Assembly (NCBI GenBank): GCA_964580895.1
Contig: CAZOMD010000001.1
Location: 1-48,756, forward strand
Reading direction: 5' to 3'
Source: an uncultured Planctomycetia bacterium
Lineage (GTDB): Bacteria; Omnitrophota; Gorgyraeia; Tantalellales; Tantalellaceae
Length of the DNA: 48,756 bases
The position numbers and the translations under genes were made by a program. Below are positions 22,180-41,683 of the stretch, in pieces. The notes under the pieces were generated by a model that was not told the DNA's origin, did not search any database, and worked only from the letters and a program-made list of their open reading frames with translations. Position 1 is the stretch's first letter, and every line of letters begins with the position of its first letter.

Positions 22180-22182
22180 ATT

Positions 22183-27429: not shown

Positions 27430-27462
27430 ACTGCTCTCCTTTTGCTAATATTCCACAAATAG

Positions 27463-27490: not shown

Positions 27491-27587
27491 CTATTTGCGT
27501 TATATTTGCAATATATTTTTTAAATATATTAGGAACTCTGGACGATGCGGTGTTTGTGCTACAACTTCTATTATCCAGACAACGGAC

Positions 27588-27642
27588 ACGAAACTACTCC
27601 CACACCTGTATTTTTTTGTTCGGAAACCCATCCCTGATTTTA
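27588..27642 (+). repeat. Direct repeat Rb copy 2, extended by Rb' (partner 28811-28848)
   Basis: 27588-27617 equals 23674-23703. acctgtatttttttgttcggaaacccatccctgatttta matches acctgtattgttttgttcggaagcccacccttattcta, and these two copies flank the HEPN gene. Confidence 0.75.
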
Positions 27643-28761
27643 TTACCACTTATCCATCCCTAGCTCCTTACCCCATCCCTGCGCATATCCTGCTGTGAGC
27701 TCATCCCATACCAATGGATGATAATAGCACTTCGCTCTAAAACCATTAATCTTCTCATCGGCTTCCATAAAATATTCATGCAGTTCGTCGCTCCTCTCAT
27801 AAAATTCTTGATTAGACCAGTGCAGAGAACGCTCTAGTAGATCTTTCTCTGGGTCTTTAGGATAAAAACCTTCCTTAAAATCTAAATTTTTACAAAGATA
27901 TTTGATAAAACTATCTTGGCTTTTGTCGTCCTGTTTTATTTTTGAATTTAATATAAATCTTATGGCCGATTCTGCTATAAGCGATCCATCTCCGCTTACC
28001 GATAGAGCAATTAAATAATCTAAAAACGTATCCCCTTCCACCAATGAAAGTAACTTATCGAAATCTGGCAGAACTTTTGTGACGGGCCATGCCAATGAAA
28101 CCACAAGCCCATCCTTTGATTCAAAGATTTCAGTTTTTACATGTTCCGATATTTGACTCGAAATATTTTTAAACAATCTATAACTAAATACTTCTTCTTG
28201 ATCCTCTTTTTTTTCGTCAAATTTTTCAGATTGAGTGCCTGGCGAATAGATAATTTTAGAATTCTCCGAATTTTCAACTATTCCTAAATTTGCCTTAAAC
28301 TTACCTACGATTTCATTAAAATATTTTAACAAGCTTTCGAGGTGAACAAATATTCCCTTCTCCACAATATGCCCATGAGAAACAATATTCCGCAGGTATT
28401 CAATCTCTCCGACTTTTACGATGAATATTTCCTTATCAATGTTAGTTTTGCCTTTAAAGTAACTCCAAACTTCATTTTTTGAAGTCAATATTTCCTGCAA
28501 CTCAAACAGCGTAATATGCCAAAAAGGATGCGTGTAGCTTTCCGCCGTAAGATAGTTATACCTCCTGAAAGCTTTTCTTCGTAAACCTATTTTCTGTGAA
28601 ATATTTTCGGGAATGTTCCTTTTCCATTCTACACAATAAACTGCAATGTATGTTGCATAACAAATTTTCCTCAAAAATTGTTCTATGTGAAAAATTTCTG
28701 CATACAATTTAATATTGTTTTGTAAAGCTTGATCCCTAATTTCATTTTTTCCCGGATTCAT
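27643..28761 (-). CDS. Swt1-like HEPN-domain protein with an unknown C-terminal half
   Basis: The layout FHIEQFLRKI...VEWKRNIPENI...FELQEIL...W..F...YLRNIVSHGH carries the R-x4-H HEPN motif (RNIVSH). Confidence 0.65.
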   Translation of the reverse strand: MNPGKNEIRDQALQNNIKLYAEIFHIEQFLRKICYATYIAVYCVEWKRNIPENISQKIGLRRKAFRRYNYLTAESYTHPFWHITLFELQEILTSKNEVWSYFKGKTNIDKEIFIVKVGEIEYLRNIVSHGHIVEKGIFVHLESLLKYFNEIVGKFKANLGIVENSENSKIIYSPGTQSEKFDEKKEDQEEVFSYRLFKNISSQISEHVKTEIFESKDGLVVSLAWPVTKVLPDFDKLLSLVEGDTFLDYLIALSVSGDGSLIAESAIRFILNSKIKQDDKSQDSFIKYLCKNLDFKEGFYPKDPEKDLLERSLHWSNQEFYERSDELHEYFMEADEKINGFRAKCYYHPLVWDELTAGYAQGWGKELGMDKW

Positions 28762-28810
28762 GCGAAATCTCCTTTTGGAATATTCGAAACATTCCCGATT
28801 TAATTCATAG

Positions 28811-28848
28811 ACCTGTATTGTTTTGTTCGGAAGCCCACCCTTATTCTA
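28811..28848 (+). repeat. Direct repeat Rb', copy 2
   Basis: See 27588-27642. Confidence 0.7.
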
Positions 28849-28929
28849 ATCCCAACTCTGTCTCTTTTTCAACGTTTTCGCGAAACATAAAGAAAAATTG
28901 CGGGTTGCCGGAAGATCGATACTCTGGAG

Positions 28930-29048
28930 CTTGTTTTTGTTATTTTAAACTTCCAGTTCCGGGAAATGACCTATGCTGCGAAACGGTAACGGGGTCAGTT
29001 CCCGGAAATGGAAGTTTCCCGTCCTTCGGAACCGGTTAACCGGCGAAC
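28930..29048 (+). repeat. Direct repeat Rc copy 1, with a 24-bp-arm imperfect hairpin
   Basis: Matches 31013-31118. Arms aacttccagttccgggaaatgacc (28948-28971) and ggtcagttcccggaaatggaagtt (28993-29016) pair at 22/24 around a 21-nt loop. Confidence 0.85.
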
Positions 29049-29096
29049 CCTGCCTACCGGCAGGCAGGCAACGGCGTCCCTCGCCCCTCGGAACCC

Positions 29097-29133
29097 CCTC
29101 TGACTCTTTGACTCTCTGAATCTCTGACTCTTT
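29097..29133 (+). repeat. 8-nt periodic array (YNTGAMTC)
   Basis: ctgactc tttgactc tctgaatc tctgactc. Related arrays at 43527-43560 and, inverted, at 20468-20490. Confidence 0.8.
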
Positions 29134-29138
29134 ATAAT

Positions 29139-29186
29139 CAACCAACGAACCGGCGAACAGGCAAACCGGTAAACTGGCTAACCAAC
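29139..29186 (+). repeat. 8-nt periodic array (NNGNNAAC)
   Basis: caac caac gaac cggcgaac aggcaaac cggtaaac tggctaac caac. Confidence 0.8.
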
Positions 29187-29209
29187 TCCTCCACCCGCTC
29201 CGCCAGACA

Positions 29210-29776
29210 TCACGGCTGGGTAGTAGTCATCGTCCCGTCAAATGTCGAAATCTCTTCTTTCGGCTTTAAAGCGATCTTAAGGCCGAGGGTTTTGGCGATC
29301 TTATTTATTGTTTTGAACGAGAAATTGATATTGCCGTTCTCTATAGAAGAGATGGTCTGCTGCGATACGCCAGTCTCTTTTGAGGCGTTTTTTTGTGTCC
29401 AGGCTTTTCCTTTTCTGGCCTTTCTGAGCGTACTTCCGATCTCGACCATTTCTTTTTCAGCTGTTTTTTTTACCGCTTTTTTCGCGCCGATCTTCCCTTT
29501 ATCGATATTCTTTAAAGCGATTTTATAAACTTCGTCCCAAAAAATAATTCTCTTATCGTTCCACTTATTTTGGCGCATCCGCCTTTTAATGGCGTTCCAA
29601 TTCCGGCAAAAGACGATCACATCAAGATATTCCGAAAAAACTTCTTTCGGCGTATTCATCCTTGATAACAGCAAAGAGGCATATTCAATAAATTTCGCGT
29701 TCGAACTATCTTTTAAGACCTTCTTGATCTTATCTATATCGGAGTTTTTATCCCAGAAAATATTATCGCTCATCAT
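29210..29776 (-). CDS. XRE-family HTH protein with an unknown N-terminal domain (putative antitoxin)
   Basis: C-terminal WTQKNASKETGVSQQTISSIENGNINFSFKTINKIAKTLGL is an HTH_3-type motif. ATGA overlap with the upstream AbiEii gene. Confidence 0.75.
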   Translation of the reverse strand: MMSDNIFWDKNSDIDKIKKVLKDSSNAKFIEYASLLLSRMNTPKEVFSEYLDVIVFCRNWNAIKRRMRQNKWNDKRIIFWDEVYKIALKNIDKGKIGAKKAVKKTAEKEMVEIGSTLRKARKGKAWTQKNASKETGVSQQTISSIENGNINFSFKTINKIAKTLGLKIALKPKEEISTFDGTMTTTQP

Positions 29777-30492
29777 AATTCATCCTCGATCTCAGCTTTA
29801 ACGATCCTTTCGATCTCATCCCTAAAATGCCTCTCTATTTCCCGATAATCGATCCTCTGTTGAGTTATTATATCTAAAAGATCGCCTTTGATCGTATTCC
29901 TATCATAGGATCTATACCACAGGACCAATCCCTCTTTCATTACCGCGGTACAGAATTTCTTCGCGAAGTCTGAAAGGGGCAGAAAGGTCTTTGAAAGATG
30001 ATATAGGTCAAAAAAATCCTTGGCTTCCTGCCGTCCTCCATAAAATCTTTTTTTGCCAACGTCATCCGTTTGAATAAAACTTCCGCTAACCGTGAATATT
30101 TTCCTTAAATATATATCGTTAAGAGATAGGACCGGCACCCCTTCCATCATTTTAAGCGGCTCAAGTAACTTATGATAATCTTCAATAAAATCAAGTTTAA
30201 GAACTTCTTCAGAACCGGCTATCGGAACAGAATAAACCATCATTTTAGCCATATCCACAGTCTTTTGTTCCCCGATCAACTTGATCTCAACTTTAATCGA
30301 ATCTGAAATATGCGCGACGATATCGTTGATCTTCTTTTTATTAAAATCTTGAGTAAAAAAATCGAGATCAAAAGATTCCCTGTGCTCAAAGTAAAATAAT
30401 GACAAAGCTGTTCCTCCGGCTAAATAAAAGCCCGCCAGCTTCTTTGCCAAAACTGCCAACACTTTATCCCTTAATTTTAAAACCTTTTTCAT
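29773..30492 (-). CDS. AbiEii/AbiGii-family nucleotidyltransferase (type IV TA toxin-like)
   Basis: FYLAGGTALSLFYFEHRESFDLDFF matches the DUF1814/AbiEii N-terminal signature. Confidence 0.75.
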   Translation of the reverse strand: MKKVLKLRDKVLAVLAKKLAGFYLAGGTALSLFYFEHRESFDLDFFTQDFNKKKINDIVAHISDSIKVEIKLIGEQKTVDMAKMMVYSVPIAGSEEVLKLDFIEDYHKLLEPLKMMEGVPVLSLNDIYLRKIFTVSGSFIQTDDVGKKRFYGGRQEAKDFFDLYHLSKTFLPLSDFAKKFCTAVMKEGLVLWYRSYDRNTIKGDLLDIITQQRIDYREIERHFRDEIERIVKAEIEDEL

Positions 30493-30638: not shown

Positions 30639-30965
30639 TTACGCGCAGAGCTCGCGGGGACGCTCAAAACATGCTAGGTCCGGATCAGAGTAACACCATG
30701 GAACATATGACGATATCGCATTTGAACGTGCGCTGTCTTGGGTGTTCTGACGGGGCTTCATGAGCCTCGCAAGCTTGGTCTCTCCGAAGCCATAATATTT
30801 AGCCATAAGGACATGGTTTAGCTGCCAATTACCAAAATCATTTGTAACTTGGCGAGGAAAGTTCGAAGGCGAGTGTAGAGGAAACTTTTGCGCAGGAAAA
30901 AATTTTACGTCCCCGGAAGAATACCCGGGACCGCTTCCGCTGTAACGGTCTATCCATCGATACAA
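30639..30965 (-). CDS. Questionable ORF (108 aa), possibly a gene remnant
   Basis: No recognisable motif. Low-complexity N-terminus and no obvious RBS. Only the central stretch (NWQLNHVLMAKYYGFGETKLARLMK) looks protein-like. Confidence 0.25.
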   Translation of the reverse strand: MYRWIDRYSGSGPGYSSGDVKFFPAQKFPLHSPSNFPRQVTNDFGNWQLNHVLMAKYYGFGETKLARLMKPRQNTQDSARSNAISSYVPWCYSDPDLACFERPRELCA

Positions 30966-31118: not shown

Positions 31119-31159
31119 CTAACTGGCTAACCGGTTAACTGGCCAACCGGCGAACCAAC
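31108..31159 (+). repeat. 8-nt periodic array (NNGNNAAC)
   Basis: cggaac cggctaac tggctaac cggttaac tggccaac cggcgaac caac, with exact period 8. Runs into the stop codon of the giant ORF. Confidence 0.85.
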
Positions 31160-34100
31160 TACACCGCGCTCGCTATTTTCTCCGTCTCGGCGTTATATCT
31201 CGCTTTAAGCACTTCCAACTCGAGCTTTCCCGCCGTCGGGATGAATATAAAATTCCTCGCCGTCTCTCCTTCCGAAACAAGAATGAACGGGTCGTTTATT
31301 ATTGTGTCCCCGTCGAACGCGAGTCTAAGCGCTATTTCTATCATCCGGAGAAGCCTCACATCGCCGGTTTCCGGGAAACTCTCAAGGCGCGACACCTCGG
31401 CGAAGAACGCCCATTTCGACGCGTCGTCCCCCGGCCGTAACCAGTCAAACGCGCTACCGTCGAAAATCCCTTCTTTACCCAAAAGTACTATATTAGACAG
31501 TGGTATCTTCATGAACTTATTCGTATCACGGCTAAGTTCATCCATTTTTGAACTGACTTCGGAAGCAAGCCCCTCGGCGTTCCCCCTGACTATAATGATG
31601 TTATTTAACCCTTTCTTTTCGGAAAGTTTCGTAAGCTCGTTCACAAGGCCCTGTATGGCCGCCCTTTGCATATCCGGGATCCAGCTCGTGTCTATCCCTA
31701 CAATAACCCCTTCATTTTTTCTCTTAGCCTCATATGCCCTCGCCACTAACTGATCAAAGAGGCGCTGGACTTCTTTTGCCGCTTTTCCATCTTGTTTTAT
31801 CCCGGCCTCTTCCCTTTCGATATCGCGGACGGCTTTTTCGAGATCGTTGAAAAATTCGCGGGCTTTCGTTTCAAAGAACAGCAGATAGTCGTGCATAACA
31901 CGCGTCTCGGGATATTTTTCTGCCGGTATTATTTTTTTGAATTCCTCTCGTGTATGAGCGATGAGTTTAAGATGTTTTTCTTTTAGCGCCAATATCTCCG
32001 TCACAGTATCGCGCGCCGGCGGATAGTCATAATTGAGCCGGGAATATTCCGGAAGGCTGCCCTTGAAGCTGTAAAGTTCAGTCTCCAGGTCCTTATATAA
32101 TTCAAATATTTTTTCCTTTGTTTCGCCGTCTAACCCGACTCTTTTCGAGTTTATCTTCAGCCCGATGACAATAAGCGCGTTCTTGGGATGGTCCCAGACA
32201 TATTGCCCCGCGACATAAAGCAGATAGTTATATGAAGCTTCGGGACAGGTGACTTTCATTTCCGACCGGTATTCCGGCGAATTAAGGCGCCGCGCTCTTC
32301 CAAACGTGCTTTCCTCGTTACGCACCCTGTCCGCGGGATCTTTCCACGCATCCAGATATTCTTCGCCGTACGGCTCCTCGCCCGGCGCCGCGCTTTTTTC
32401 AGCGGGAGGCGTCTCCGTCTTCCCGGCAAGAGTAGAGCCGTCTTTATCTTTCGGTATTTTGATAGTAAATACGGAGCCCTTACCTTCTTCCGAATGGATG
32501 TCGATCCTCGCGCCGTGGTCCTTCAGGACATACCATGCTTCGGCGAGACCTAACCCCGTCCCGGTTTCTTTTGTCGTGACATTAATGTCGTATATCGCCG
32601 GCCTTCCGTTTGGCCCTATTTTTAAGAAATCACTCGCCACTCCGCCGCCATTATCCTCTATCTTTATCGCCACCCAATCCCCGTCTTCCTCAATATCTAT
32701 ATCCACCCTCATGTCCTTTTGTCCGGAATATTTCCCGGCGCTTGACCACGCGTTCCGCACGATATTGGCGACCGCGTTCAGCAGAGACAGCCTGTCCCCG
32801 GATATATACATTTCTTTTTCCGGTACGCTTCGCATCCCCACGCCGTACAACATGGCCTCATCCGGATACCTGCCCGTATTCCACCGAGCCGCGTCCTCAA
32901 CAAGTTTTTTTATCCCGATCTTCTCTTCCGATGTTCTGCCGTCCGCGAACCTAAGCCGGTTATTCAAGATCTCTTTCGCCAGGTGAAGATGTTTTACCAT
33001 TCTTTCCAGATCCGGAAGTCTTTTCTCTCCCAAAGCGTTCTCCCCAAGCGAGGAGCGGCCCGATCCCAGCTTGCATGCCTCCATGAACGAATTCGCGGTT
33101 TCATACAATTCGTCCGCCTCGCCGGTAAGCTTTTCCAAAGTGCCGCGCCATTCATTGATTTCATCCGGATCATCCTGTTTTATCAGGGTTATTTCCCTGA
33201 CTTTAAAATAAAGATCTTTTACGTCTTTCTCCAGCTTTTTACACTTCTCTATCTTCGCGCGCGTTTCGTCCGGCATAAGTCCGCCAAGATCCCCGTCTTT
33301 AAAGGCCATAAAGGCGTCAACCAGCCTGGCCCCCGGGTCTGTCGCCGGGCCGTGATCAAAGGTCCTGATTGCGATCGCGACGCGTTCGGCCTTTTCCCTT
33401 ATCTCGTTCCGCTGGACCTTGATCGCTTCCTGCTTTTCTTTTTCCTGGATAAGCCTGTACGCTTTATAAAGCGTTTCTTCCTTGGCGGGGCTGAATATCC
33501 TCATGTCGCCGTAATCGGCGACAGCCCGTTCCTTAACGGCATCCTCTATCTTTATGCTCGAGGTCATCTCGATGAGTTTTTCGAGCCTCGAAGTTATGTC
33601 TATCCTGCGGAATATATTATTGAATTCGTACGCGCTTGAAGACCCGGCGTCCCCGGAGGTGCTAACGGAGATCTTTAGTTTCAGGTCAAAATTATATCTG
33701 CCGCCAAAAAGCTCTTTAAGCCTTTCCTCGGAGCGGCGCTTCACGTTTATCAAGATATCGGTCAGGACATTTATGAACCTGTCTTGATCTATCCTGTCTT
33801 CGAGGGATATCAGGAATCTGTCCGGCGGGGACCTCCCGAAAACAGCTTTCGTAATATCGGAGCTCTTGAACGCTTTCTCTATCTCTTCCGCGAGAACGGT
33901 AATGACGAGGTTCGCGTCGTCGTGCCCGAGGGCGGCGTTAAGCGCGTGGAACCCGCCTTTTTCGCGTGAAAGTTCCCCGGTATACGAAGTTATCTCAAAA
34001 GCCATGAGCGTTTCGCCGATCCTATCCCTGAACTTATCCTCCTCATAAAATCCGGTGAGGGTATCTATCCCTTCTTCCTTCTCGCCGCTTCCGAGCTTAA

Positions 34101-36300
34101 CGAGCTTCGTTCTAAGGTCTTTCCCCTCAAAAGAACCGATATCTTGGGCGATATACACGGCATTCCGCGTCTTTTTAGCCTTACGAAGCGCGTCATCGGC
34201 GAGTATCATCCCCAGGGAATAGATCCGTTCAAGCGTTTCTTCGTCTTTAATGAACCCGTCCGCGTCGAGAAGCGCCGCTCCGTCCGTTCCCTCTAATTTT
34301 TCGATAAGGCTTTTTGCCGATACCGCGCCCATGGATACCGTTACCGCCGGCATATTCCCTTCGTTAAAGTCCAGGGGAACGAGCGTATTCCCGAAGTTCT
34401 CGTTCAACATCCGTAAATACAGGTCGAATGGTTTCTCGTTCCTTTTGACAAGAACGTGATACCCGTTACCGTACCTGACCACGCTAAGAACATCCGGGTT
34501 GTAATAAAGAAGCATCTGTTCCCTGGGCGTAAGATCGCCGGCTTCCGCGACAGCGTACTTCCCCTTAAAAGACGTGTTGAACTTTTCTCTTATGTAATTA
34601 AGTTTCCCCTCGAGGTTCCCTACTTTTATCGAGCCTCCCACCGGCATGAATTCGTCCCCCGAAAGGTACCGGTAAACTTCCATCTCCTGGATAGAGAATT
34701 CCTTGGCAAGTGTTTCGAGCATCTCCTTAAAAAGCGAATGTTTTGAGAAAATAACGTCCGGGTCAACAGGTTCCTCCAAAATGCCGATTACACCCTTTGA
34801 ATAGATCCTATTCCGCCGGCTTAGCCTATCAATGTCACCAAGTATAAAGTAATGGTCGTCCGCGTTAAAATTCACGGCCCTTAGCTTTTCTTTCGCGGAA
34901 CGTATGCCTTCTTCCCGTGAAAGCGGTAAAAGCGTGTCTTCCCGCTCCCCGGCTGTACGCGTCATATTCCCCATATTCGCCCAGAACGCGCCGGGAGTAT
35001 CTGTCCGCACTTCGTGCCGGTAGAGATAAGAAACACTATCGATGAGATCGTTTATAAAGGCCATATCGCCTTCAGCGCCGGTCCCGTAAAACGATCCTCT
35101 CATTTCGTACAATATGTCTAACATTTTGGGAACAAGTTTTCCCGGATCTTCGTAAACGCTTATTTCGGTGCTGAAGTTCCTGGCATGATCTTCTTTTTCC
35201 TTGGTATCCGCATCCAAAAGGACCAGGTCTCGCAAAGGCTTAAGGACCCTTGGGCCGGAAACAGCCGCATATGATCTTTTTAAGGTAGATACAAGAACGG
35301 AAAGGACCAGGAGATTGAAATAATATTGTTTTTCGGGCATGCCAAGTTCCTTTATGCCGCTCAGCGTTTCCACGAACTCGACGAGGTCTTCCTTGGTCAT
35401 ATCTTCATTCCATTTTAGATCAAGGAGGTCGCCCGTTACTGCCTGGAGTTTCAAGAGCTCCTCAAAAAGGCTCTCTCCCCTTAAAGCCTCGCGATCGGAG
35501 GGAACGCCGCGTAGCGCGAGGATAGCCAGGATCTCTTCCCGCGCGTCATCTTTTTCGGCGCTGGCGGGCCGTGCGCCCAGCCCCTTAAGAACGGAGAGGA
35601 CCTTCTCGCGTTTCGGCGGGCTTAGGTCGGCCGCCCTGTATAAAGAGCCTTCATTCGAAAGCTGCTTCTCGACAAGCCCGAGGTATATAAGCGTCCCGAG
35701 GTCGCGCAGTACCGTTTCGGACGAAAGATGCCCGTCCGGCATCCTGCCGATAGTCTCTTCCCGTATCGAGCCGGCATCAACGAACGCGCCGTTATATTTT
35801 ACGGTAAGAACATCGAAAATATTGTATGGCGAGCCGTCCGGTTCGGTTCTCTTCTTCGGGGTGCCCCTCTTCGTTTTTAGCGGACCAACCTTCCGCAAAA
35901 TCACTTTTGCGTTCTTTCTTTTGCTGTTTTTTGCAGAAAAGATCTCCCAGAGCTTTTCCGTGGGTTTCGTGATAAAATTTATGCGGTTATCTATTTTCGC
36001 GAGAAGTTTTTTCTTCAGGCTATCACTTAGCTTCGCTTTTCCTATCTCTTTTTTTAAAGCAACAAGAGACCACCTGACCCAAAGATCGTTTATGACCTTT
36101 GATATCCAGGCTTCTTCGATTTTCCAGTGAGCCGCCAAAAAAACAGGGTCGAAATTAACTATTTCCTTTAGTTGTTTAACAATGAGGGGCCTGTATTTCT
36201 TGTTTTCGGTTATCTGCCCGCGGCGGTATTCCCTTCCCAGAAAATCCTCCACTCTTTTAAGGCGCGCCTTTGTCGATAAATAGTTTATTCCATATGACAT
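31159..36300 (-). CDS. Giant multidomain protein B (1713 aa): K/R linker+GSPY module, two GGDEF-type palm domains, coiled coils, HK-type HATPase_c, unknown C-terminal domain
   Basis: Palm 1: ILGDIDRL...YRYLSGDEFMPVG...TVSMGAV. Palm 2, degenerate: GGFHALNAALGHDDANLV...FGRSPPDRFLISL...KISVSTSG. HATPase: NIVRNA, IEDNGGGV, GTGLGLA, GKGSVFTIKIP. The start overlaps the end of ORF A by 44 nt; a GTG at 36255 is an alternative start. Confidence 0.8.
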   Translation of the reverse strand: MSYGINYLSTKARLKRVEDFLGREYRRGQITENKKYRPLIVKQLKEIVNFDPVFLAAHWKIEEAWISKVINDLWVRWSLVALKKEIGKAKLSDSLKKKLLAKIDNRINFITKPTEKLWEIFSAKNSKRKNAKVILRKVGPLKTKRGTPKKRTEPDGSPYNIFDVLTVKYNGAFVDAGSIREETIGRMPDGHLSSETVLRDLGTLIYLGLVEKQLSNEGSLYRAADLSPPKREKVLSVLKGLGARPASAEKDDAREEILAILALRGVPSDREALRGESLFEELLKLQAVTGDLLDLKWNEDMTKEDLVEFVETLSGIKELGMPEKQYYFNLLVLSVLVSTLKRSYAAVSGPRVLKPLRDLVLLDADTKEKEDHARNFSTEISVYEDPGKLVPKMLDILYEMRGSFYGTGAEGDMAFINDLIDSVSYLYRHEVRTDTPGAFWANMGNMTRTAGEREDTLLPLSREEGIRSAKEKLRAVNFNADDHYFILGDIDRLSRRNRIYSKGVIGILEEPVDPDVIFSKHSLFKEMLETLAKEFSIQEMEVYRYLSGDEFMPVGGSIKVGNLEGKLNYIREKFNTSFKGKYAVAEAGDLTPREQMLLYYNPDVLSVVRYGNGYHVLVKRNEKPFDLYLRMLNENFGNTLVPLDFNEGNMPAVTVSMGAVSAKSLIEKLEGTDGAALLDADGFIKDEETLERIYSLGMILADDALRKAKKTRNAVYIAQDIGSFEGKDLRTKLVKLGSGEKEEGIDTLTGFYEEDKFRDRIGETLMAFEITSYTGELSREKGGFHALNAALGHDDANLVITVLAEEIEKAFKSSDITKAVFGRSPPDRFLISLEDRIDQDRFINVLTDILINVKRRSEERLKELFGGRYNFDLKLKISVSTSGDAGSSSAYEFNNIFRRIDITSRLEKLIEMTSSIKIEDAVKERAVADYGDMRIFSPAKEETLYKAYRLIQEKEKQEAIKVQRNEIREKAERVAIAIRTFDHGPATDPGARLVDAFMAFKDGDLGGLMPDETRAKIEKCKKLEKDVKDLYFKVREITLIKQDDPDEINEWRGTLEKLTGEADELYETANSFMEACKLGSGRSSLGENALGEKRLPDLERMVKHLHLAKEILNNRLRFADGRTSEEKIGIKKLVEDAARWNTGRYPDEAMLYGVGMRSVPEKEMYISGDRLSLLNAVANIVRNAWSSAGKYSGQKDMRVDIDIEEDGDWVAIKIEDNGGGVASDFLKIGPNGRPAIYDINVTTKETGTGLGLAEAWYVLKDHGARIDIHSEEGKGSVFTIKIPKDKDGSTLAGKTETPPAEKSAAPGEEPYGEEYLDAWKDPADRVRNEESTFGRARRLNSPEYRSEMKVTCPEASYNYLLYVAGQYVWDHPKNALIVIGLKINSKRVGLDGETKEKIFELYKDLETELYSFKGSLPEYSRLNYDYPPARDTVTEILALKEKHLKLIAHTREEFKKIIPAEKYPETRVMHDYLLFFETKAREFFNDLEKAVRDIEREEAGIKQDGKAAKEVQRLFDQLVARAYEAKRKNEGVIVGIDTSWIPDMQRAAIQGLVNELTKLSEKKGLNNIIIVRGNAEGLASEVSSKMDELSRDTNKFMKIPLSNIVLLGKEGIFDGSAFDWLRPGDDASKWAFFAEVSRLESFPETGDVRLLRMIEIALRLAFDGDTIINDPFILVSEGETARNFIFIPTAGKLELEVLKARYNAETEKIASAV

Positions 36301-39300
36301 AATTACCCAGCTCGTCTTCGACTCCGACTTCTCCGGCGACGAGCAGCCTGATGTCGTCCTTAAGCGACGCGCCGGACCTTATGTTGTTATCCAGCCCCTT
36401 GGCTATATCCACCAGGTGCGTGAAAGACCTGGGGGTATTCTCCTCTTTAAGGTTCATTAACACGGCGTAGGGCGAGCCCTGCGGGATGTTTTTTTTGTAA
36501 ATGAATTTCTTCCTGAACGTTTCCATGCTGTTAAAAAAGATATCCGCCTGATCGAGGATATCGAGCTCTTTTTTAGCGCGAGGCTTACGATCAGTTTGGA
36601 CCGTTTTCTTGCTTTTTCGGGATTTTTTACGGACCGCGGCTCCCCCTTCTTCATCCTCTTCCTCTTTAACGCTGTCATCTTTCGCGGGATCATAGGACCG
36701 GAAGATCTGGCCCATATAACTTACGGGATATCCGACCCCGCACAAAAGCCCCGCGAGATTGTCGGCCGTGAGAAGCGCGAACTCTTTGTCTTTTCTCCAG
36801 GCTTTTCGAAAAAGCCTCAGGAACGCCTCTTTCTCGTCTCCGCCGGTTGCCTTCAACAAGCCGGCGAATTCCGCCGGGAGGTCCAGCCATTTTCCCATAT
36901 AATGCGTGTAAAGATTATCAAACGATCCCATCCTCATCACCTTAAATCCCGCGTTATAAAGCGCCTGCGCGAGATATATGGAATTTATCTCCCCGTAAGG
37001 CTTCAATCTTCTTTGGGTCTCTTTGAACGCGATAAGTTTTTGCTGGGGTCTTTTTGCGAGTTCTTCCTGAAACACGGCCCCGGCCCACATGGAATCGGCC
37101 ATCCTGAATCCCGGCTCGTGGAGGAACGGCTCCTTTATCGTCCTTTTCCCGTATATCTTCATATACTTCGCGAGCTCGTCGTTAAAACTCTGCGGGATTA
37201 TTTTCTCCATCGAACTTTTTACGGCGTACTTAAGACATAAGTTCCCTTTCTTGTCGGTGAAGGTCACAAGATACGCCAGGGGCCGATTCTTATTATCCCG
37301 GCACCTGATAAGAACGAACTCCGCCCTTTCTTTTAGAAAATCGTACCTGTATTTATCTTTCTTCGTGCTAATCACTAATGGTTTCGCCCCGCCAAGTGTC
37401 ATCTCATGGACCTCGGGCTCTTGCGCCGACAACCACCTGCCAGATCTCACTTTAACGATTTCCGGTTTCCTTTTCCTGGATGTAATGGGAAGCCCCGAAA
37501 GCCTAAGAAGGAGACGCAGGTTCTTGTTTGTGAACAACGGGTGGTACGCTCCGGCGAACCGCATCCTCTCAAAGAGATCATCATAAGCCGCCGCGGGCGT
37601 CATCCTTCGTAAAGACGCCTCATATATCTCGAGGATATCGAACGTCTTCTTCCTGCTTACGGTGGAATTATCAAGATAGTGTTTATATAATTTATATGCG
37701 TCGCTTATCCTTTTTATCTTGAACCCCGAGCCGGTCAAGATCCCCTCAAGGTTGCCGGCATTCAGGCGGGCGCGTTCCCCGTCAATGCGTGACGCCTCTT
37801 CCAATAACCGCACGAAGGCCTGGAAACAGGCGTCCTCGTTAAGGTATTCGGCGTATTTAGCCGGCAAATCGTACCCGAATTTTTCAAGATAATGCGTGTA
37901 AATCTTGTACTGGGTGCTAGACGTGATGACTGAAAAACCGAAGTTTCTCAGCACATTCTCAAGATTAGTCTCGGTAATCACTCCGTATTTATCAAGCTCC
38001 TTCTTCGTGTTAAAAAATGCAAAGAACGGCCGCGAGGGATCTTTCAATAATTCTCGTTGATAAACCGCGCCCGCCCACATGATATGCGCCTGGTCGTAAC
38101 TCGGAACGTCAAATCTGGAATCCTTATGGATGTTGTTCTTTTGTTCCGCGAGATGAGACTCGATCACGTCAAAAAAATCTTGCGGGACTTTTTTTCGCTT
38201 ATATTCATCCACAGCGTAGCGCATATTAATCCGCCCTATCTTGTCCGGATATGCCACGAGATACGCCAAGGGCGTCCCTTCAGTGTCCTCATATTTCATA
38301 ACGGTAAAAGCGGTATCTGCCGGTACGAAGTTATATTTCTTCGCCCCTTTTTGGGCTTTTAGAGAAAGTTTTTCGAGCGCCGGAAAATCCCCTTTTATGG
38401 TTATCGGAGGTTTAACGGTTATTTTTAGGCTCTTTTTGCGCCTCTTCACCTCGGCGGGAAGTTTTTGATCGATGAACGCTATGATCTCATCTTTTTCAGG
38501 GCCGTCGGCCATGATTACGCTAACGGCTTTTTTTGTCGCCGTTATGTTCTGCGTGAGCAATAGACCCTCTATGATGGATTTCAGTTTGGGGATATCGTTC
38601 TTAAAATTATCGACAGCACTTTCGGCGTTGTAAAAATCTATCTCTTTTAATTTGGCGATTATGATCTTCTTCTTCTCGCCGTTGCTATTCTTGGTTATAA
38701 GACCGTCCCTGTAATTGCGTTCGAGGAACATCTTCATCCTGAGGTATTTTTTCCAGCTTTCCTTGTCTTTCGTCAGGGCGCGGCTTATCGTATATTTCCC
38801 GGCGGCAGACTCCTCAACCACATACCCGGCACGCAGTATCTCTAAGTCATTCGCGATAGTATTAACGCTCATGATCTTTCCGTCCGCCATTCGGAGAAGC
38901 TCTTCTACGCTTACTTCTCGCCCTTCATGGTACGCTTTTTCCACGTTAACGAGGACGGCGTAGGGCGAACCCTGGAATTTGTGTTTTTTGCTTGGCTGAG
39001 GCCTTCTCTTTTCTTTTTTCTCTGGAAGGATCAGGTCCTCGATGGGACGGATATTCCTCGCTTTCGGCCTGAATTCGACGGATCCCTCAAAGAACGATGA
39101 GAGGTCAAAATAATATATGCCGCTTTCTCCATTTTCAAGGATCCTTTCGGTGATGACCTCTTCCGCCAGGCGCCGGCATGCCTCCTCCGTGTCCACCAAA
39201 AGCACGGGCCTGCCCTCTTGTCTTATCTTGTCCACATTTTCTTTTTTCAGGTTCGCGGCCCTGATCTTGAATTTCTTGTCGAATTTATTGTATTCCTGAT

Positions 39301-41599
39301 ACCTAAGCACGGCGTCTATGAACTCGGCGGCGTGTTCCGTTATGATATCTTTTTCCTTTTTGCCGTACGCCGAATATTTAAGGCTTTTCTCTACCTTCTT
39401 TATCATCATCTTCTGGATAAGCGCTATCTTCTTCGCGGCCATGAACATGCGTTCCAACCCGGCCACTATCTCCTCGAACCAGAGTATCGTCTTTTTAAAC
39501 GTCCTTACAACCACGTTCCCATCCGGGCCTTTCCGCTCAACGCGGGCGCTTTCGTTGTGCTCTGCCGTATACAAAAGTTGTGCCGGCACGGAAATACTGA
39601 ACCCGATATATACCGGTATCCAGCTTGTAGCAAAAAGCGCCGCGAAGGGAACTCCCCCGTAAAATGGTTTGAACAACATTAACGCGAGCGTGCGCGTCCC
39701 GCCGCCGAAAAATGTAGAAGTCCCGAAACTCAGGGCACCCTCGGCATATTTTCCTTCGAAAACAAAATATACACTCGCTATCCACGTCACTGCCTTTATG
39801 ATGTTAGCGAAGACCTCTATCGCGACAAAGACCGTAAAGATCCTGATATACGCGTTCTGTTGCTCGGCCGTCATCTCTCCCAAAAGGAGATCGAAGATGC
39901 GCCGTATCCTCGCTATCTTTCCTCCGAACCACGGCAGGCGTTCGGCGTAGAAGAACGCCGTCTTCAGCGTCTTTGAGGTCAAAATGGACTTCCGGGGCCC
40001 GGGTTGGACCTTCTTTTTGACGTTTTGCCTTAAGCCTTTATCGGGGGCTTGCGCCGGCCCTTTGTCTTTTTGTTCGAGCTTCAAGCCGGCAAGAACATCC
40101 GCTGCCGCCGGTTTCTGCCGTATCCTTACGTACCAGCCGTAATGGTTAAGGGCTTTGCGCTCATTGTCCTGTGTTCTCCTCATTGAGCTCGGGATAAAAT
40201 ATTTCTCCCTGACCTCGAGGATATTTTCTCTGAATTTCGCGATGCCAGGGACTTCTATGGCCTTTAGCGGCAGCGGGAAGAAAGAGCTTCTGTCCACATC
40301 AATCTCCCATGTTGAATCTATAAAATGATCGTCCGTGACAAAATATCCTCCCTGCTTGAGATATCCGTTAATAAACCCCATGTAGCTACCCCGGCCTTTA
40401 CCGTATTCCTCCGCCAGAGCGTTCGCCGCCCGCTGATAATAAATATCGATCTTTTTGCCTTCCAGCACCTGTTTATAACCCGCAGGCCGGGTCACGTCGG
40501 CGCCGACCAAGGTCACGGAATATTCCCGCTCTTCGACGGATTTATATCTCCATTTGAATTTGAGTCTCGGGTGTCCGCGGTACGTGTCGACTTCGACCTT
40601 TTTCAGGTCGACCCCCATGGCCTTTAGTTCAAAGGCTATCGCCGCGATGACATTTTGCTTCGTTCCTAACGCGAGCCGGCTTACGCTGCCATCGGCTAGC
40701 TTTTTCTCATACAGGCTTTTGAATAAATTTTTATCGATATATTCATCCGGGTCTTCGCTATCGAAACATTTCATCAAGTCCTTTTTCTTAAGCCTTGTCA
40801 GTCCGAGTTTGTGATAATCGGAGATAAAATACGCCTCCGTGGCATTCGTGGAAAGCAGGAAATTTGAGATATCCGCGCCCGCGGCCCCGTAAACCGCCGT
40901 AAGCGGCTTGTTCCCCGGGTTTATTATCTTCTTGACCGCCATATCATGTTCGATATAAGCCTTGTGAAGAAGCCCGGCAAAATAGGGACGCGGATCGATA
41001 TCATTCTCATCTTTATCGGCGGCGGACACATCCTGGAATAGCCTTTTCCATCCGCCCTCAACTATAACCCGTGCCGTGCCGGAGCCGACCGCCACAGATT
41101 CTTTTCCTTGAGCTTCCGGCGGATTATCAGACGGGAGATAATACCGCAAGATCCCGCTTGTCCCATCTGCTCTAAGGTACTTGAGACAAAAGGTCTTTCC
41201 TTCCTGAGTTATCTTGTCCCATCGGAACAACGAAACATCAACATGCCGGACTTCTTTCCCAATAAGAGATATAAGACCCGCTGTGCTGATCTTACTCCCA
41301 AAACGGTCTAGGATCCCGCCGATCAGCGTGCTTATATATAGTAAAACAGCTTTTTCTTTGAACTCTCCGGAAATTTCGAGGCCTTCCAGTTTATTTTTGA
41401 GAGAAAAGTCGTTTCCCCTCCGCTCGACTCTAAGCACCTCTGTTGTCTCGAACCGGGAAACGGGGGATAATGTGTGGATAACCTCTTTTGGCGTGTTCAG
41501 TTGTGTGGCAAGCGCCACGTCGTTACACACGAACGCGATAATGATAACTACGGCTATCACTCGGTTAAATATCTTATATTTGTTAAACACTTTGGTCAT
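36257..41599 (-). CDS. Giant membrane-anchored protein A (about 1780 aa): signal anchor, possible Rossmann/MTase-like region, 4-5 TM block, two GSPY modules, 330-aa internal tandem duplication
   Basis: One uninterrupted ORF. I chose the ATG at 41599 (MTKVFNKYKIFNRVIAVVIIIAFV) because the TTG at 41683 lies in the -35 box. TM block at about 39560-39975. VYGAAGADIS...LKQGGYFVT at about 40330-40950. Confidence 0.8.
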   Translation of the reverse strand: MTKVFNKYKIFNRVIAVVIIIAFVCNDVALATQLNTPKEVIHTLSPVSRFETTEVLRVERRGNDFSLKNKLEGLEISGEFKEKAVLLYISTLIGGILDRFGSKISTAGLISLIGKEVRHVDVSLFRWDKITQEGKTFCLKYLRADGTSGILRYYLPSDNPPEAQGKESVAVGSGTARVIVEGGWKRLFQDVSAADKDENDIDPRPYFAGLLHKAYIEHDMAVKKIINPGNKPLTAVYGAAGADISNFLLSTNATEAYFISDYHKLGLTRLKKKDLMKCFDSEDPDEYIDKNLFKSLYEKKLADGSVSRLALGTKQNVIAAIAFELKAMGVDLKKVEVDTYRGHPRLKFKWRYKSVEEREYSVTLVGADVTRPAGYKQVLEGKKIDIYYQRAANALAEEYGKGRGSYMGFINGYLKQGGYFVTDDHFIDSTWEIDVDRSSFFPLPLKAIEVPGIAKFRENILEVREKYFIPSSMRRTQDNERKALNHYGWYVRIRQKPAAADVLAGLKLEQKDKGPAQAPDKGLRQNVKKKVQPGPRKSILTSKTLKTAFFYAERLPWFGGKIARIRRIFDLLLGEMTAEQQNAYIRIFTVFVAIEVFANIIKAVTWIASVYFVFEGKYAEGALSFGTSTFFGGGTRTLALMLFKPFYGGVPFAALFATSWIPVYIGFSISVPAQLLYTAEHNESARVERKGPDGNVVVRTFKKTILWFEEIVAGLERMFMAAKKIALIQKMMIKKVEKSLKYSAYGKKEKDIITEHAAEFIDAVLRYQEYNKFDKKFKIRAANLKKENVDKIRQEGRPVLLVDTEEACRRLAEEVITERILENGESGIYYFDLSSFFEGSVEFRPKARNIRPIEDLILPEKKEKRRPQPSKKHKFQGSPYAVLVNVEKAYHEGREVSVEELLRMADGKIMSVNTIANDLEILRAGYVVEESAAGKYTISRALTKDKESWKKYLRMKMFLERNYRDGLITKNSNGEKKKIIIAKLKEIDFYNAESAVDNFKNDIPKLKSIIEGLLLTQNITATKKAVSVIMADGPEKDEIIAFIDQKLPAEVKRRKKSLKITVKPPITIKGDFPALEKLSLKAQKGAKKYNFVPADTAFTVMKYEDTEGTPLAYLVAYPDKIGRINMRYAVDEYKRKKVPQDFFDVIESHLAEQKNNIHKDSRFDVPSYDQAHIMWAGAVYQRELLKDPSRPFFAFFNTKKELDKYGVITETNLENVLRNFGFSVITSSTQYKIYTHYLEKFGYDLPAKYAEYLNEDACFQAFVRLLEEASRIDGERARLNAGNLEGILTGSGFKIKRISDAYKLYKHYLDNSTVSRKKTFDILEIYEASLRRMTPAAAYDDLFERMRFAGAYHPLFTNKNLRLLLRLSGLPITSRKRKPEIVKVRSGRWLSAQEPEVHEMTLGGAKPLVISTKKDKYRYDFLKERAEFVLIRCRDNKNRPLAYLVTFTDKKGNLCLKYAVKSSMEKIIPQSFNDELAKYMKIYGKRTIKEPFLHEPGFRMADSMWAGAVFQEELAKRPQQKLIAFKETQRRLKPYGEINSIYLAQALYNAGFKVMRMGSFDNLYTHYMGKWLDLPAEFAGLLKATGGDEKEAFLRLFRKAWRKDKEFALLTADNLAGLLCGVGYPVSYMGQIFRSYDPAKDDSVKEEEDEEGGAAVRKKSRKSKKTVQTDRKPRAKKELDILDQADIFFNSMETFRKKFIYKKNIPQGSPYAVLMNLKEENTPRSFTHLVDIAKGLDNNIRSGASLKDDIRLLVAGEVGVEDELGNYVIWNKLFIDKGAP

Positions 41600-41653
41600 A
41601 TTTACTATTATTTCGTCTTGTATATAATAATCCTTCTGTGAAATGTGGCCAGC

Positions 41654-41683
41654 ATTATACCACCAAAAAGGCAGATACGTCAA
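41654..41683 (-). promoter_or_regulatory. Strong sigma70-type promoter of the giant operon
   Basis: Minus strand reads TTGACG, 18 nt, with TGgTATAAT as an extended -10. Leader of about 45 nt to the ATG at 41599. Confidence 0.65.

What the first reader, a model, noticed from the sequence alone, without database searches (positions are those of the whole stretch)
32440..34870. Tandem GGDEF-type palm domains (SGDEF plus a degenerate copy) upstream of an orphan HK-type ATPase in giant protein B
Palm 1 keeps the metal-binding ILGDIDRL, a YRYLSGDEF signature and TVSMGAV, so it could still make a nucleotide second messenger. Palm 2 keeps the fold markers (GGFHALNAALGHDDANLV..., KISVSTSG) but has RSPPDRF where GGDEF belongs, so it may be a regulatory or binding copy. 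About 500 aa downstream is a textbook HATPase_c (NIVRNA / DNGGG / GTGLGLA / GKGSVFTIKIP). The region just before it (KHLHLAKEILNN) lacks the usual H-E-x-x-x-P phosphoacceptor box. A cyclase-like domain coupled to a kinase-type ATPase without a DHp domain is not standard two-component design.
Basis: partly seen in the sequence, partly recalled or inferred. Interest (0 to 1): 0.7.

Follow-up and report, generated by a model that had tools for sequence, protein, structure and literature searches.

The report
Divergent double GGDEF module, His-less kinase
A large protein of an uncultured Omnitrophota bacterium carries an undescribed, very divergent pair of GGDEF-type (diguanylate-cyclase-like) domains, one catalytically equipped and one degenerate, followed by a histidine-kinase module that has its ATP-binding domain but no phosphoacceptor histidine. 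It is an unusual variant of known signalling parts, not a new kind of system.

Summary
All the quoted motifs are in ORF B (31159-36300, minus strand, 1713 aa) at the stated coordinates. Both palms are real, very divergent GGDEF-type domains. Pfam does not call them at its threshold, but family profiles hit almost only diguanylate cyclases in the PDB. An AlphaFold model (pLDDT 85.5) matches GGDEF structures with Foldseek probability 1.0.

The two palms travel together as one ~520-aa module in about 22 other, mostly large, uncharacterised proteins. Those with a source name are Candidatus Omnitrophota. Palm 1 keeps every catalytic residue family-wide. Palm 2's R-x-PPD-x-F is a conserved family signature, not private decay.

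HATPase_c is solid (E 3.8e-14). The claim "no DHp" is wrong. A DHp-like hairpin (aa 1045-1119) precedes the ATPase, and the model matches whole DHp+CA kinases such as HK853 (E 1e-11). The phosphoacceptor His, however, is replaced by Asp1063. KHLHLAKE lies in DHp helix 2.

Best reading: a dimeric GGDEF-family nucleotide cyclase, probably making c-di-GMP, with a regulatory pseudo-palm and a pseudo-kinase ATP-binding module.

B is probably the C-terminal half of one ~3500-aa gene split from ORF A by a 1-nt frameshift. I rate it a new variant of a known kind, of moderate interest.

The parts
31159..36300 (-). ORF B, 1713 aa. It carries all features of the finding.
33376..34947 (-). Conserved ~520-aa double-palm module (aa 452-975). 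It travels as one unit in about 22 other proteins.
   Evidence: Exhaustive phmmer; domain table; MAFFT; AF2 pLDDT 85.5 and pTM 0.79
34135..34929 (-). Palm 1 (aa 458-722), a divergent GGDEF domain with large insertions. Key residues: D489-x-D491, N497, S547-G-D549-E550-F, S656-x-G658, and D703...K709..R712-N. The insert includes a hairpin at aa 603-620.
   Evidence: Invariant columns. Profile A1 against the PDB gives DGCs as top hits, best E 0.0022. Foldseek against GGDEF gives probability 1.0.
33586..34068 (-). Palm 2 (aa 745-905), a degenerate GGDEF-like domain. It has the IDTLTGFY start, F784-H785..N788..G-H793..N797, and R823-S-P-P-D827-R-F in place of RxGGDEF. It has no DxD metal ligands.
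   Evidence: Pfam GGDEF aa 745-854, E 0.004, 17.4 bits, below the cut-off of 23.8. Profile A2 against the PDB hits 18 GGDEF entries out of 19, best E 6.7e-4, with PPDxF aligned on GGEEF. Motif census.
33364..33585 (-). C-terminal sub-domain of the module and a long helix (aa 906-979) leading towards the kinase part.
   Evidence: AF2 secondary structure
33337..33387 (-). Motif ERVAIAIRTFDHGPATD (aa 972-988, His983). It is almost identical in P0029 although the surrounding sequence is ~35% identical. Function unknown.
32944..33168 (-). DHp-like helical hairpin: helix 1 aa 1045-1078 with Asp1063 in the phosphoacceptor column, and helix 2 aa 1087-1119 containing KHLHLAKEILNN.
   Evidence: phmmer alignment to DHp helix 2 of a real HK. 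MAFFT places the H-box column on EADELYET. AF2. Foldseek HK853 DHp+CA at E 1.1e-11.
32446..32796 (-). HATPase_c (CA) domain, aa 1169-1285. N-box N1179/N1183, G1 D1216-N-G-G-G, G2 G1247-T-G-L-G.
   Evidence: Pfam E 3.8e-14; NCBIfam HK equivalogs, C-terminal parts only; invariant columns
35506..35883 (-). 'PDGSPY' module of ~110 aa (aa 140-265), winged-helix-like by eye. It is shared with Omnitrophota giant proteins P0002 (3 copies), P0003 and P0004. A similar QGSPYAVL segment occurs twice in ORF A.
31162..31770 (-). C-terminal domain (aa 1511-1713), shared only with the C-terminus of Omnitrophota protein P0003 (38% identity).
36257..41683 (-). ORF A, 1808 aa. It has an N-terminal signal or anchor sequence and a hydrophobic region at aa ~611-700. 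It is probably the N-terminal half of the same gene as B.
36257..36300 (-). 44-nt A/B overlap, a probable 1-nt frameshift at 'cta ttt atc'. One repeat unit is split between the A frame and the B frame.
   Evidence: Sequence. P0003 aa 566-633 aligns to the A tail and aa 626-727 to B aa 3-103. A aa 883-974 and 982-1128 are colinear with the A tail plus the B head.

Best explanation
Shown:
- B contains a previously unmodelled ~520-aa unit made of two GGDEF-fold domains.
- Palm 1 keeps the full catalytic kit of diguanylate cyclases. This comprises the two beta-1 Asp (D489, D491), the base-contacting Asn (N497), the [S/A/G]GDEF hairpin (D549, E550) and the triphosphate-binding Lys/Arg of the last helix (K709, R712). 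All of these are invariant across the family.
- Palm 1 also carries roughly 100 aa of inserted sequence.
- Palm 2 keeps the fold and the 'FH..N..GH' helix. It lacks the metal-binding Asp residues, and its signature is the conserved R-x-P-P-D-x-F.
- A long helix leads to a DHp-like hairpin without a phosphoacceptor His (Asp1063 in that column) and to an intact ATP-binding CA domain.

Inferred:
- The protein dimerises through the helical stalk and DHp-like bundle. This brings two palm-1 active sites together to condense two NTPs, most likely GTP to c-di-GMP.
- Palm 2 is an obligatory in-cis structural or allosteric partner, possibly a nucleotide-binding one.
- The CA domain binds ATP as a regulatory pseudo-kinase, like DivL-type His-less kinases, or phosphorylates a non-canonical residue.
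- B is most likely the cytoplasmic C-terminal half of a ~3500-aa membrane-anchored protein (A+B) that is split by a 1-nt frameshift.
For: Fold and homology:
- Profile A1 (palm 1) against PDB sequences returns mostly diguanylate cyclases, best E 0.0022. It aligns GDxD..N, RY.GGDEF and A.D.L..AK..GRN.
- Profile A2 (palm 2) returns GGDEF proteins in 18 of 19 hits, best E 6.7e-4.
- Pfam GGDEF gives weak hits on palm 2 of B (E 0.004) and of P0012 (E 6e-4).
- The AF2 model has pLDDT 85.5 and pTM 0.79. Foldseek against the PDB gives 75 hits at E<1e-3. The top hits are GGDEF domains with probability 1.0 and TM 0.59-0.68 relative to isolated GGDEF targets.

Catalytic conservation: invariant columns, and the motif census across 22 homologues.

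Module behaviour: the unit spans query 22-540 in proteins of 589-6811 aa.

Kinase part:
- HATPase_c E 3.8e-14.
- DHp helix 2 homology to a real HK.
- The H-box column is Asp in B, Gly in P0029 and Glu in P0018.
- AF2 (pLDDT 73.6) plus Foldseek match whole DHp+CA of HK853 at E 1.1e-11, covering 245 columns of a 236-residue target. DivL is also among the hits.
- The palm-plus-HATPase_c combination recurs in the distant homologue P0018.

Weak context for c-di-GMP:
- A PilZ gene lies three genes upstream of the distant homologue P0031.
- West-Roberts et al. 2023 (bioRxiv 10.1101/2023.11.21.568195) report GGDEF and HATPase_c among the commonest domains of giant Omnitrophota proteins, with pilZ genes often adjacent.
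Against: - Neither palm reaches Pfam's GGDEF threshold, and palm 1 is not hit at all.
- The second guanine-binding residue of DGCs (PleD D344, from my knowledge of the PleD structures) corresponds to an invariant Gly506. Substrate identity is therefore open.
- No PilZ, EAL, HD-GYP or REC gene lies in the window.
- Several close homologues (P0009, P0011, P0012) place the module directly after a Sec-type signal peptide. That would put a GTP-using enzyme outside the cytoplasm.
- The constant cis pairing of palm 1 with palm 2 could instead mean an intramolecular composite site.
- Dimerisation and the role of ATP are pure inference.
- The MSA used for the kinase model included real HKs. This may bias the model towards a DHp-like fold.
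Confidence: 0.5

Rival explanations
1. The two palms form an intramolecular pseudo-heterodimer, as in Cas10, class III adenylyl cyclases (C1/C2, soluble AC) or GTP cyclohydrolase III. Palm 1 supplies metals and the triphosphate site. Palm 2 supplies an acceptor or base site through its conserved F-H, N/Q, R and PPD residues. The product would be something other than c-di-GMP: a cNMP, a linear or cyclic oligonucleotide, or a hydrolysed GTP derivative.
For: - Palm 1 and palm 2 always occur together in fixed order and spacing.
- R-x-PPD-x-F, F784/H785 and Y773 are conserved, as expected for a functional rather than decaying site.
- pTM 0.79 implies a defined inter-domain packing.
- Foldseek also lists tandem-palm enzymes: GTP cyclohydrolase III 2qv6 (E 6e-5, probability 1.0, 415 columns) and soluble AC.
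- The guanine-specific Asp is replaced by Gly506.
Against: - TM-scores to the tandem enzymes are low (0.15-0.33, rmsd 17-23 A). The relative domain orientation in the model is therefore not theirs.
- Cas10 is not among the 50 best matches listed.
- Palm 2 has no metal ligands and no K/R phosphate motif.
- hhalign of palm 1 against palm 2 is not significant.
- No coordinates or PAE were available to inspect an interface.
Confidence: 0.2
2. The module is not an enzyme. It is a nucleotide-binding receptor or scaffold, like the degenerate GGDEF domains of PelD, FimX or LapD. It acts as the input domain of the downstream pseudo-kinase.
For: - The module sits N-terminal to DHp-CA, the position normally taken by sensor domains.
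- Pfam fails to recognise it.
- Some homologues appear to be exported.
Against: - Every catalytic residue of palm 1 is invariant over 21-48% identity. Pure receptors normally lose these residues.
- There is no RxxD I-site upstream of SGDEF (sequence).
Confidence: 0.15
3. B is an ordinary hybrid sensor histidine kinase and diguanylate cyclase of a two-component pathway.
For: HATPase_c, a DHp-like hairpin and a GGDEF-type domain occur in one protein.
Against: - There is no phosphoacceptor His. D1063 occupies the H-box column and there is no His in aa 1040-1103.
- H1104 and H1106 are not conserved in P0029.
- HisKA is not detected at E<=1, and no REC domain is found in A, B or the window.
- The GGDEF pair lies upstream of the kinase module rather than downstream of a receiver.
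Confidence: 0.05
4. The locus is a decaying pseudogene, so the unusual motifs are drift. The A/B frameshift would mark inactivation.
For: A 1-nt frameshift splits a unit that is continuous in relatives.
Against: - Both halves keep uninterrupted reading frames of 5.1 and 5.4 kb.
- The 'odd' motifs (AGDEF/SGDEF, R-x-PPD-x-F) are shared by many homologues.
- The frameshift may be an assembly error or a tolerated gene split, since B has its own ATG.
Confidence: 0.1

Closest known systems
GGDEF diguanylate cyclases (PF00990; PleD, WspR, DosC, DgcZ, DgcR)
   Same: - Same fold, with Foldseek probability 1.0.
- Same order of motifs in palm 1: DxD..N, RxGGDEF-type hairpin, SxG strand, AD.AL..AK..GRN helix.
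- Palm 2 starts with the DxLTG 'wide turn'.
   Different: - Sequence is too divergent for Pfam.
- Palm 1 has about 100 aa of insertions.
- The guanine-binding Asp is replaced by an invariant Gly.
- There is no I-site.
- It is always fused to a second, degenerate palm.
- It sits upstream of a kinase module instead of downstream of a sensor or receiver.
Degenerate GGDEF domains used as receptors or scaffolds (PelD, FimX, LapD, YybT/GdpP-type)
   Same: Palm 2 has lost the GGDEF signature and the metal ligands while keeping the fold.
   Different: - Palm 2 has its own conserved signature, R-x-PPD-x-F.
- It has no RxxD I-site.
- It is paired in cis with an apparently active GGDEF domain rather than with an EAL domain.
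Tandem-palm enzymes: Cas10 (Palm1/Palm2), class III cyclase C1/C2 and soluble AC, GTP cyclohydrolase III (MJ0145)
   Same: They have one polypeptide with two homologous palm domains, of which only one carries the full metal-binding set.
   Different: - There is no HD, zinc-finger or GGDD feature.
- Foldseek TM-scores to sAC and GCH III are low, and Cas10 is not among the 50 best matches listed.
- The order here is active palm first, degenerate palm second.
His-less histidine-kinase-like proteins (DivL, with Tyr in place of His; pseudo-HKs)
   Same: They have DHp+CA architecture with an intact ATP-binding domain but no phosphorylatable His. DivL (4q20) is among the structural matches.
   Different: - Asp, not Tyr, sits at the acceptor position.
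- The module is fused to a GGDEF pair.
- No partner response regulator is known.
Giant multidomain proteins of Omnitrophota (West-Roberts et al. 2023, bioRxiv 10.1101/2023.11.21.568195)
   Same: - Same phylum, by the source names of relatives.
- Very large, mostly unannotated proteins with signal and TM segments.
- GGDEF and HATPase_c are listed among their frequent domains.
   Different: - A+B (~3500 aa) is far below the >30,000-aa class.
- The double-palm module found here is not detectable with the Pfam GGDEF model, so it is probably not what that census counted.

Membership tests
GGDEF domain / diguanylate cyclase (PF00990) | Match to the Pfam GGDEF model above the gathering score (23.8 bits) | tested here: not met
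   Palm 2 scores 17.4 bits, E 0.004. Palm 1 has no hit at E<=1. None of the 18 homologues scanned passes; the best is P0012 at 20 bits.
GGDEF domain / diguanylate cyclase (PF00990) | GGDEF/class III cyclase-type palm fold | tested here: met
   AF2 pLDDT 85.5. Foldseek top hits are GGDEF domains with probability 1.0 and TM 0.59-0.68 relative to the target. Which palm each hit covers was not reported. Alignment lengths of 148 to 273 columns suggest that both palms are covered.
GGDEF domain / diguanylate cyclase (PF00990) | [G/A/S]G[D/E]EF signature on the beta2-beta3 hairpin | tested here: met
   Palm 1 has S547-G-D-E-F. All 22 homologues have [G/A/S][G/A]DE[F/I/L]. Palm 2 does not meet this feature; it has R-S-P-P-D-R-F.
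GGDEF domain / diguanylate cyclase (PF00990) | Metal-binding Asp in beta1 (DxD) and triphosphate-binding Lys/Arg in the last helix | tested here: met
   Palm 1 residues D489, D491, K709 and R712 are invariant and align to DosC and 3ign. Palm 2 lacks them.
GGDEF domain / diguanylate cyclase (PF00990) | Guanine-recognising Asn and Asp (PleD N335 and D344) | tested here: inconclusive
   The Asn is present (N497, invariant). The Asp position falls on an invariant Gly506 in a remodelled alpha1-alpha2 region. The PleD numbering is from my own knowledge.
GGDEF domain / diguanylate cyclase (PF00990) | Synthesis of c-di-GMP from 2 GTP | not testable with these tools
   This needs an enzyme assay.
Sensor histidine kinase (HisKA + HATPase_c) | HATPase_c with N, G1 and G2 boxes | tested here: met
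   Pfam E 3.8e-14. N1179/N1183, D1216xGxG and G1247xGxG are invariant in the alignment with real HKs.
Sensor histidine kinase (HisKA + HATPase_c) | DHp helical hairpin immediately upstream of CA | tested here: met
   Helices aa 1045-1078 and 1087-1119. Foldseek HK853 DHp+CA at E 1.1e-11 over the whole target. Sequence alignment of helix 2 to a real HK. Caveat: the MSA contained real HKs.
Sensor histidine kinase (HisKA + HATPase_c) | Conserved phosphoacceptor His in the H-box of DHp helix 1 | tested here: not met
   The H column is D1063 in B, Gly in P0029 and Glu in P0018. There is no His in aa 1040-1103. HisKA is not hit at E<=1.
Sensor histidine kinase (HisKA + HATPase_c) | Cognate receiver (REC) domain in cis or nearby | tested here: not met
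   No Response_reg hit in A, B or any other window ORF that was scanned.
Cas10 / class III cyclase-type tandem palm pseudo-heterodimer | Two palm domains in one chain, only one with a full catalytic set | tested here: met
Cas10 / class III cyclase-type tandem palm pseudo-heterodimer | Head-to-tail packing that forms a composite active site | tested here: inconclusive
   Matches to sAC and GCH III have TM 0.14-0.33 and rmsd 17-23 A.
Cas10 / class III cyclase-type tandem palm pseudo-heterodimer | Cas10 hallmarks (GGDD motif, HD domain, zinc finger, CRISPR context) | tested here: not met
   No such Pfam or PADLOC hits. Cas10 is not among the 50 best Foldseek matches listed.

The most novel reading that the evidence does not exclude
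The 'GGDEF-PPD' double palm would be a new class of nucleotide-signal synthase. Palm 1 and palm 2 would form a composite intramolecular site and make a product other than c-di-GMP. In the signal-peptide-bearing homologues the module would be exported by these predatory or parasitic ultra-small bacteria, to act on nucleotide pools or signalling of a host or prey cell. The His-less kinase module would act as an ATP-dependent switch.
Probability: 0.1. Interest if true: 0.8.

Novelty: new variant of a known kind. Interest (0 to 1): 0.45.

Why it matters
The finding defines a GGDEF-superfamily module that current domain libraries miss. About 24 clusters were found among 1.84 billion representatives, and those with a source name come from Candidatus Omnitrophota. 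The module has a fixed active-plus-degenerate tandem design and a conserved R-x-PPD-x-F signature.

If palm 1 is active, it adds hidden second-messenger capacity to an uncultured, possibly predatory phylum. It also offers a natural test of what a cis-paired pseudo-GGDEF domain does.

The His-less DHp-CA next to it is another example of a pseudo-kinase that may use ATP binding for regulation.

Practically, the family alignments (A1-A3) could seed a new profile HMM for annotating 'dark' regions of giant proteins.

Tried and rejected
- **Word-index homologue search, full B.** It found only module-sharing Omnitrophota proteins and nothing for the palms.
- **Same search with alignment A3.** It returned nothing, so one search was wasted.
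- **PDB sequence search with the single sequence.** Nothing significant; profiles were needed.
- **hhalign of palm 1 against palm 2.** Not significant. Their common origin is therefore supported only through each one's match to GGDEF.
- **PADLOC on A, B and neighbours.** No defence-system membership for A or B.
- **PilZ test.** I tested whether the 108-aa ORF just downstream of B (30639-30965) is a PilZ, as reported next to giant Omnitrophota genes. It has no Pfam hit and is probably not a gene.
- **L004 locus.** I asked whether the 591-aa gene next to P0029 is a separate double palm, which would be a Rosetta-stone argument. There is no similarity.
- **P0008 region after its palms.** By eye it looked like an RsbW/SpoIIAB-type ATPase. 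Neither Pfam nor the PDB sequence search supports this, so I dropped the idea.
- **GTDB-representative and metagenome contig scans.** They yielded only two short contigs and no new context.
- **Exact-sequence contig look-up of B.** Not on record.
- **C-terminal domain.** By eye it looked similar to P0008, P0010 and P0011, but phmmer does not support this. Only P0003 matches.
Full report
**Setting**

The window is a bacterial chromosome segment. Its housekeeping genes include purine synthesis, SHMT, FtsH, enolase, Rnf, split transketolase, HisG and others. Almost all genes lie on the minus strand.

Two long ORFs lie head to tail on the minus strand. A is 36257-41683 (1808 aa) and B is 31159-36300 (1713 aa). 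The only relatives of B that carry a source name are 'Candidatus Omnitrophota bacterium' MAG proteins, so the organism is most likely an Omnitrophota.

**Observation**

The finding's interval (32440-34870) corresponds to aa ~478-1287.

**Are the palms real?**

Pfam alone is not convincing. GGDEF hits only aa 745-854 (palm 2) at E 0.004 and 17.4 bits, below the 23.8-bit cut-off. Palm 1 gets no hit.

An exhaustive phmmer search of aa 431-1130 against 1.84 billion representatives found 23 relatives. In these, the conserved unit is aa ~452-970. The two palms therefore travel together as one ~520-aa module in proteins of 589 to 6811 aa.

Invariant residues in palm 1 of a 15-sequence alignment (21-48% identity to B) are D489, D491, N497, G506, D549, E550, S656, D703, K709 and R712. 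In palm 2 they are Y773, F784, P826 and D827, with H785, R823 and P825 nearly invariant.

All 22 homologues that have palm 1 carry [G/A/S][G/A]DE[F/I/L]; the distant ones are canonical GGDEF or GGDEI. Seventeen carry R-x-PPD 270-350 aa further on. B's SGDEF and RSPPDRF are therefore family features.

- A profile of palm 1 searched against PDB sequences returns mostly diguanylate cyclases. The best are 3ign (E 0.0022), DosC (0.0024) and WspR. The alignment places GDxD..N, RY.GGDEF and A.D.L..AK..GRN on their canonical counterparts.
- A profile of palm 2 returns GGDEF proteins in 18 of 19 hits. The best is DgcR 6zxb at E 6.7e-4 over 153 columns, with PPDkF aligned on GGEEF.
- An AlphaFold2 model of aa 445-975, built with the 15-row alignment, has mean pLDDT 85.5 and pTM 0.79. 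Both halves show the beta-alpha-alpha-beta-beta-alpha-beta order.
- Foldseek against the PDB gives 75 matches at E<1e-3. The top matches are GGDEF domains with probability 1.0 and TM 0.59-0.68 relative to isolated GGDEF targets.

I conclude that both are genuine, highly divergent GGDEF-fold domains.

**What the residues say**

Mapped onto diguanylate cyclases through the DosC and 3ign alignments and my knowledge of PleD, palm 1 keeps:
- the beta-1 metal-binding Asp pair;
- the base-contacting Asn;
- the catalytic D/E of the signature;
- the Lys/Arg that hold the beta- and gamma-phosphates.

Palm 1 lacks the second guanine-binding Asp, where an invariant Gly506 sits. It has no RxxD I-site. It carries large insertions, including a conserved hairpin at aa 603-620.

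Palm 2 keeps the DxLTG start and the 'FH..N..GH..N' helix. It has neither the metal-binding Asp residues nor the phosphate-binding helix. Its conserved R-x-PPD-x-F argues for a retained non-catalytic role.

**The kinase part**

HATPase_c is unambiguous. Pfam gives E 3.8e-14, and the N, G1 and G2 boxes are intact. NCBIfam matches only the C-terminal parts of many HK equivalogs.

The closest relative of aa 969-1285 is P0029, a 615-aa protein with its own signal peptide and no palms.

Its two His are ENLNYITA in P0029.

In a MAFFT alignment with four real DHp-CA segments, the SHELRTPL column falls on EADELYET. His becomes Asp1063 in B, Gly in P0029 and Glu in P0018. B has no His between aa 1040 and 1103. 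HisKA is not hit even at E<=1.

An AF2 model of aa 930-1300 (pLDDT 73.6, pTM 0.75) shows helices at 1045-1078 and 1087-1119 directly before the CA domain. Foldseek matches the complete DHp+CA of HK853 (E 1.1e-11, 245 columns against a 236-residue target), ZraS, WalK and the His-less DivL.

So a DHp-like hairpin exists and only the phosphoacceptor is missing. One caveat is that the MSA contained real kinases. The palm-plus-HATPase_c combination recurs in the distant homologue P0018.

**Mechanism**

My best reading (confidence ~0.5) is a dimeric GGDEF-family cyclase. I propose the following:
- Dimerisation goes through the helical stalk and the DHp-like bundle.
- Palm 1 is the catalytic domain, probably making c-di-GMP.
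- Palm 2 is an obligatory cis partner or allosteric site.
- The CA domain is an ATP-binding pseudo-kinase switch.

Fold, homology and residue conservation are shown. Product, dimerisation and regulation are inferred.

The main rival (0.2) is an intramolecular composite site of the Cas10 / class III cyclase / GTP cyclohydrolase III type, with a different product.
- It is favoured by the strict cis pairing and by the loss of the guanine-specific Asp.
- It is disfavoured by the low TM-scores to sAC and GCH III and by Cas10 not appearing among the 50 best matches listed.

A pure receptor role (0.15) is unlikely given the invariant catalytic residues. An ordinary hybrid HK-DGC (0.05) is contradicted by the missing His and by the absence of HisKA and REC.

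**Wider context**

West-Roberts et al. (bioRxiv 10.1101/2023.11.21.568195) list GGDEF and HATPase_c among the most frequent domains of giant Omnitrophota proteins. They note pilZ genes next to giant genes.

I found a PilZ gene near the distant homologue P0031 but none in this window.

The close clade is rare. Only one contig turned up among GTDB representatives and one in the JGI metagenome scan. Literature searches for tandem or degenerate GGDEF found only GGDEF-EAL cases. I found no description of this module.

**A and B are probably one gene**

The A tail (...ELGNYVIWNKL|FIDKGAP*) and the B head (MSYGINYL|STKARLKRVEDFLGREYRRGQIT) together rebuild a unit that is continuous in P0003 and inside A itself.
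- P0003 aa 566-633 aligns to the A tail in the A frame, and aa 626-727 aligns to B aa 3-103.
- A aa 883-974 and 982-1128 are colinear with the A tail plus the B head.
- A single-nucleotide indel near 'cta ttt atc' (~36272-36280) would fuse the two frames.

A begins with a Sec-type signal or anchor sequence and has a hydrophobic region at aa ~611-700. The fused protein would therefore resemble a membrane sensor with a ~550-aa external part. The remainder, including the palms and the kinase module, would be cytoplasmic.

**Verdict**

This is a new variant of known kinds: a divergent tandem GGDEF module plus a His-less HK module. It is of moderate interest.

Noticed in passing
window 36257-36300 (minus strand), the A/B junction: ORFs A and B overlap by 44 nt in different frames. 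Relatives (P0003, and A's own internal repeat) are colinear across the junction. A 1-nt indel at 'cta ttt atc' would fuse them into one ~3500-aa ORF. The cause could be an assembly error, a true frameshift or gene split, or programmed frameshifting.
   Followed up: partly
N-termini of A (aa ~29-60), P0008-P0012 and P0029; neighbours in L002, L004 and L007 (five consecutive genes, L007 8568-14463): Many family members and their neighbours share a Sec-like leader: a Lys-rich start, a hydrophobic stretch, then an AxA-type site such as LWA|RP, SWA|QS or VYA|QP. In most of them (not in A or P0008) the leader is followed by a conserved 'LR[PA]xAxxER' motif. In P0009, P0011 and P0012 the double palm follows within 30-60 aa of the leader. 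This would place a GTP-using domain outside the cytoplasm.
   Followed up: partly
window 33337-33387 (B aa 972-988): The motif ERVAIAIRTFDHGPATD, with His983, is nearly identical in P0029 (ERLAIAIRSFDHGPATD) although the proteins are only ~35% identical overall. It lies in a loop about 195 aa upstream of the N-box. It might be a non-canonical phosphoacceptor or a binding site.
   Followed up: no
window 35506-35883 (B aa 140-265); similar QGSPYAVL segments in A near aa ~900 and ~1735: A ~110-aa 'PDGSPY...' module, winged-helix-like by eye, recurs in Omnitrophota giant proteins: three copies in P0002 and single copies in P0003 and P0004. No Pfam model matches it.
   Followed up: partly
window 31162-31770 (B aa 1511-1713): This C-terminal domain is shared only with the extreme C-terminus of Omnitrophota protein P0003 (38% identity, E 1.7e-35). 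It has a Rossmann-like beta-alpha pattern by eye and no Pfam match.
   Followed up: partly
window ~20787-30492: tRNA-Met (20787-20861, + strand) is followed by a lower-GC stretch (0.38-0.41 at 24-30 kb). The stretch carries a HEPN+MNT pair (21150-22179), a SIMPL protein, a 799-aa protein with a weak HATPase_c_3 hit (24758-27157), a 372-aa protein matching PADLOC PDC-M34B (27643-28761), and an HTH_3 + AbiEii pair (29210-30492). It is probably an integrated defence/TA islet next to A and B. A and B themselves have the GC content of the flanking housekeeping genes.
   Followed up: partly
L011 4136-4933 (locus of P0031, a 6798-aa distant homologue): A PilZ-domain protein (265 aa) lies three genes upstream of the giant gene that carries a double-palm module. 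This echoes the reported pilZ genes next to giant Omnitrophota genes. It is a single case.
   Followed up: no
P0011 aa 2215-2482; P0017 aa 2443-2522: Other carriers of the double palm combine it with unrelated enzymes: a phosphate acetyl/butyryl transferase domain in P0011 and a Peptidase_M50 domain in P0017. The module behaves as a portable unit in mosaic proteins.
   Followed up: no
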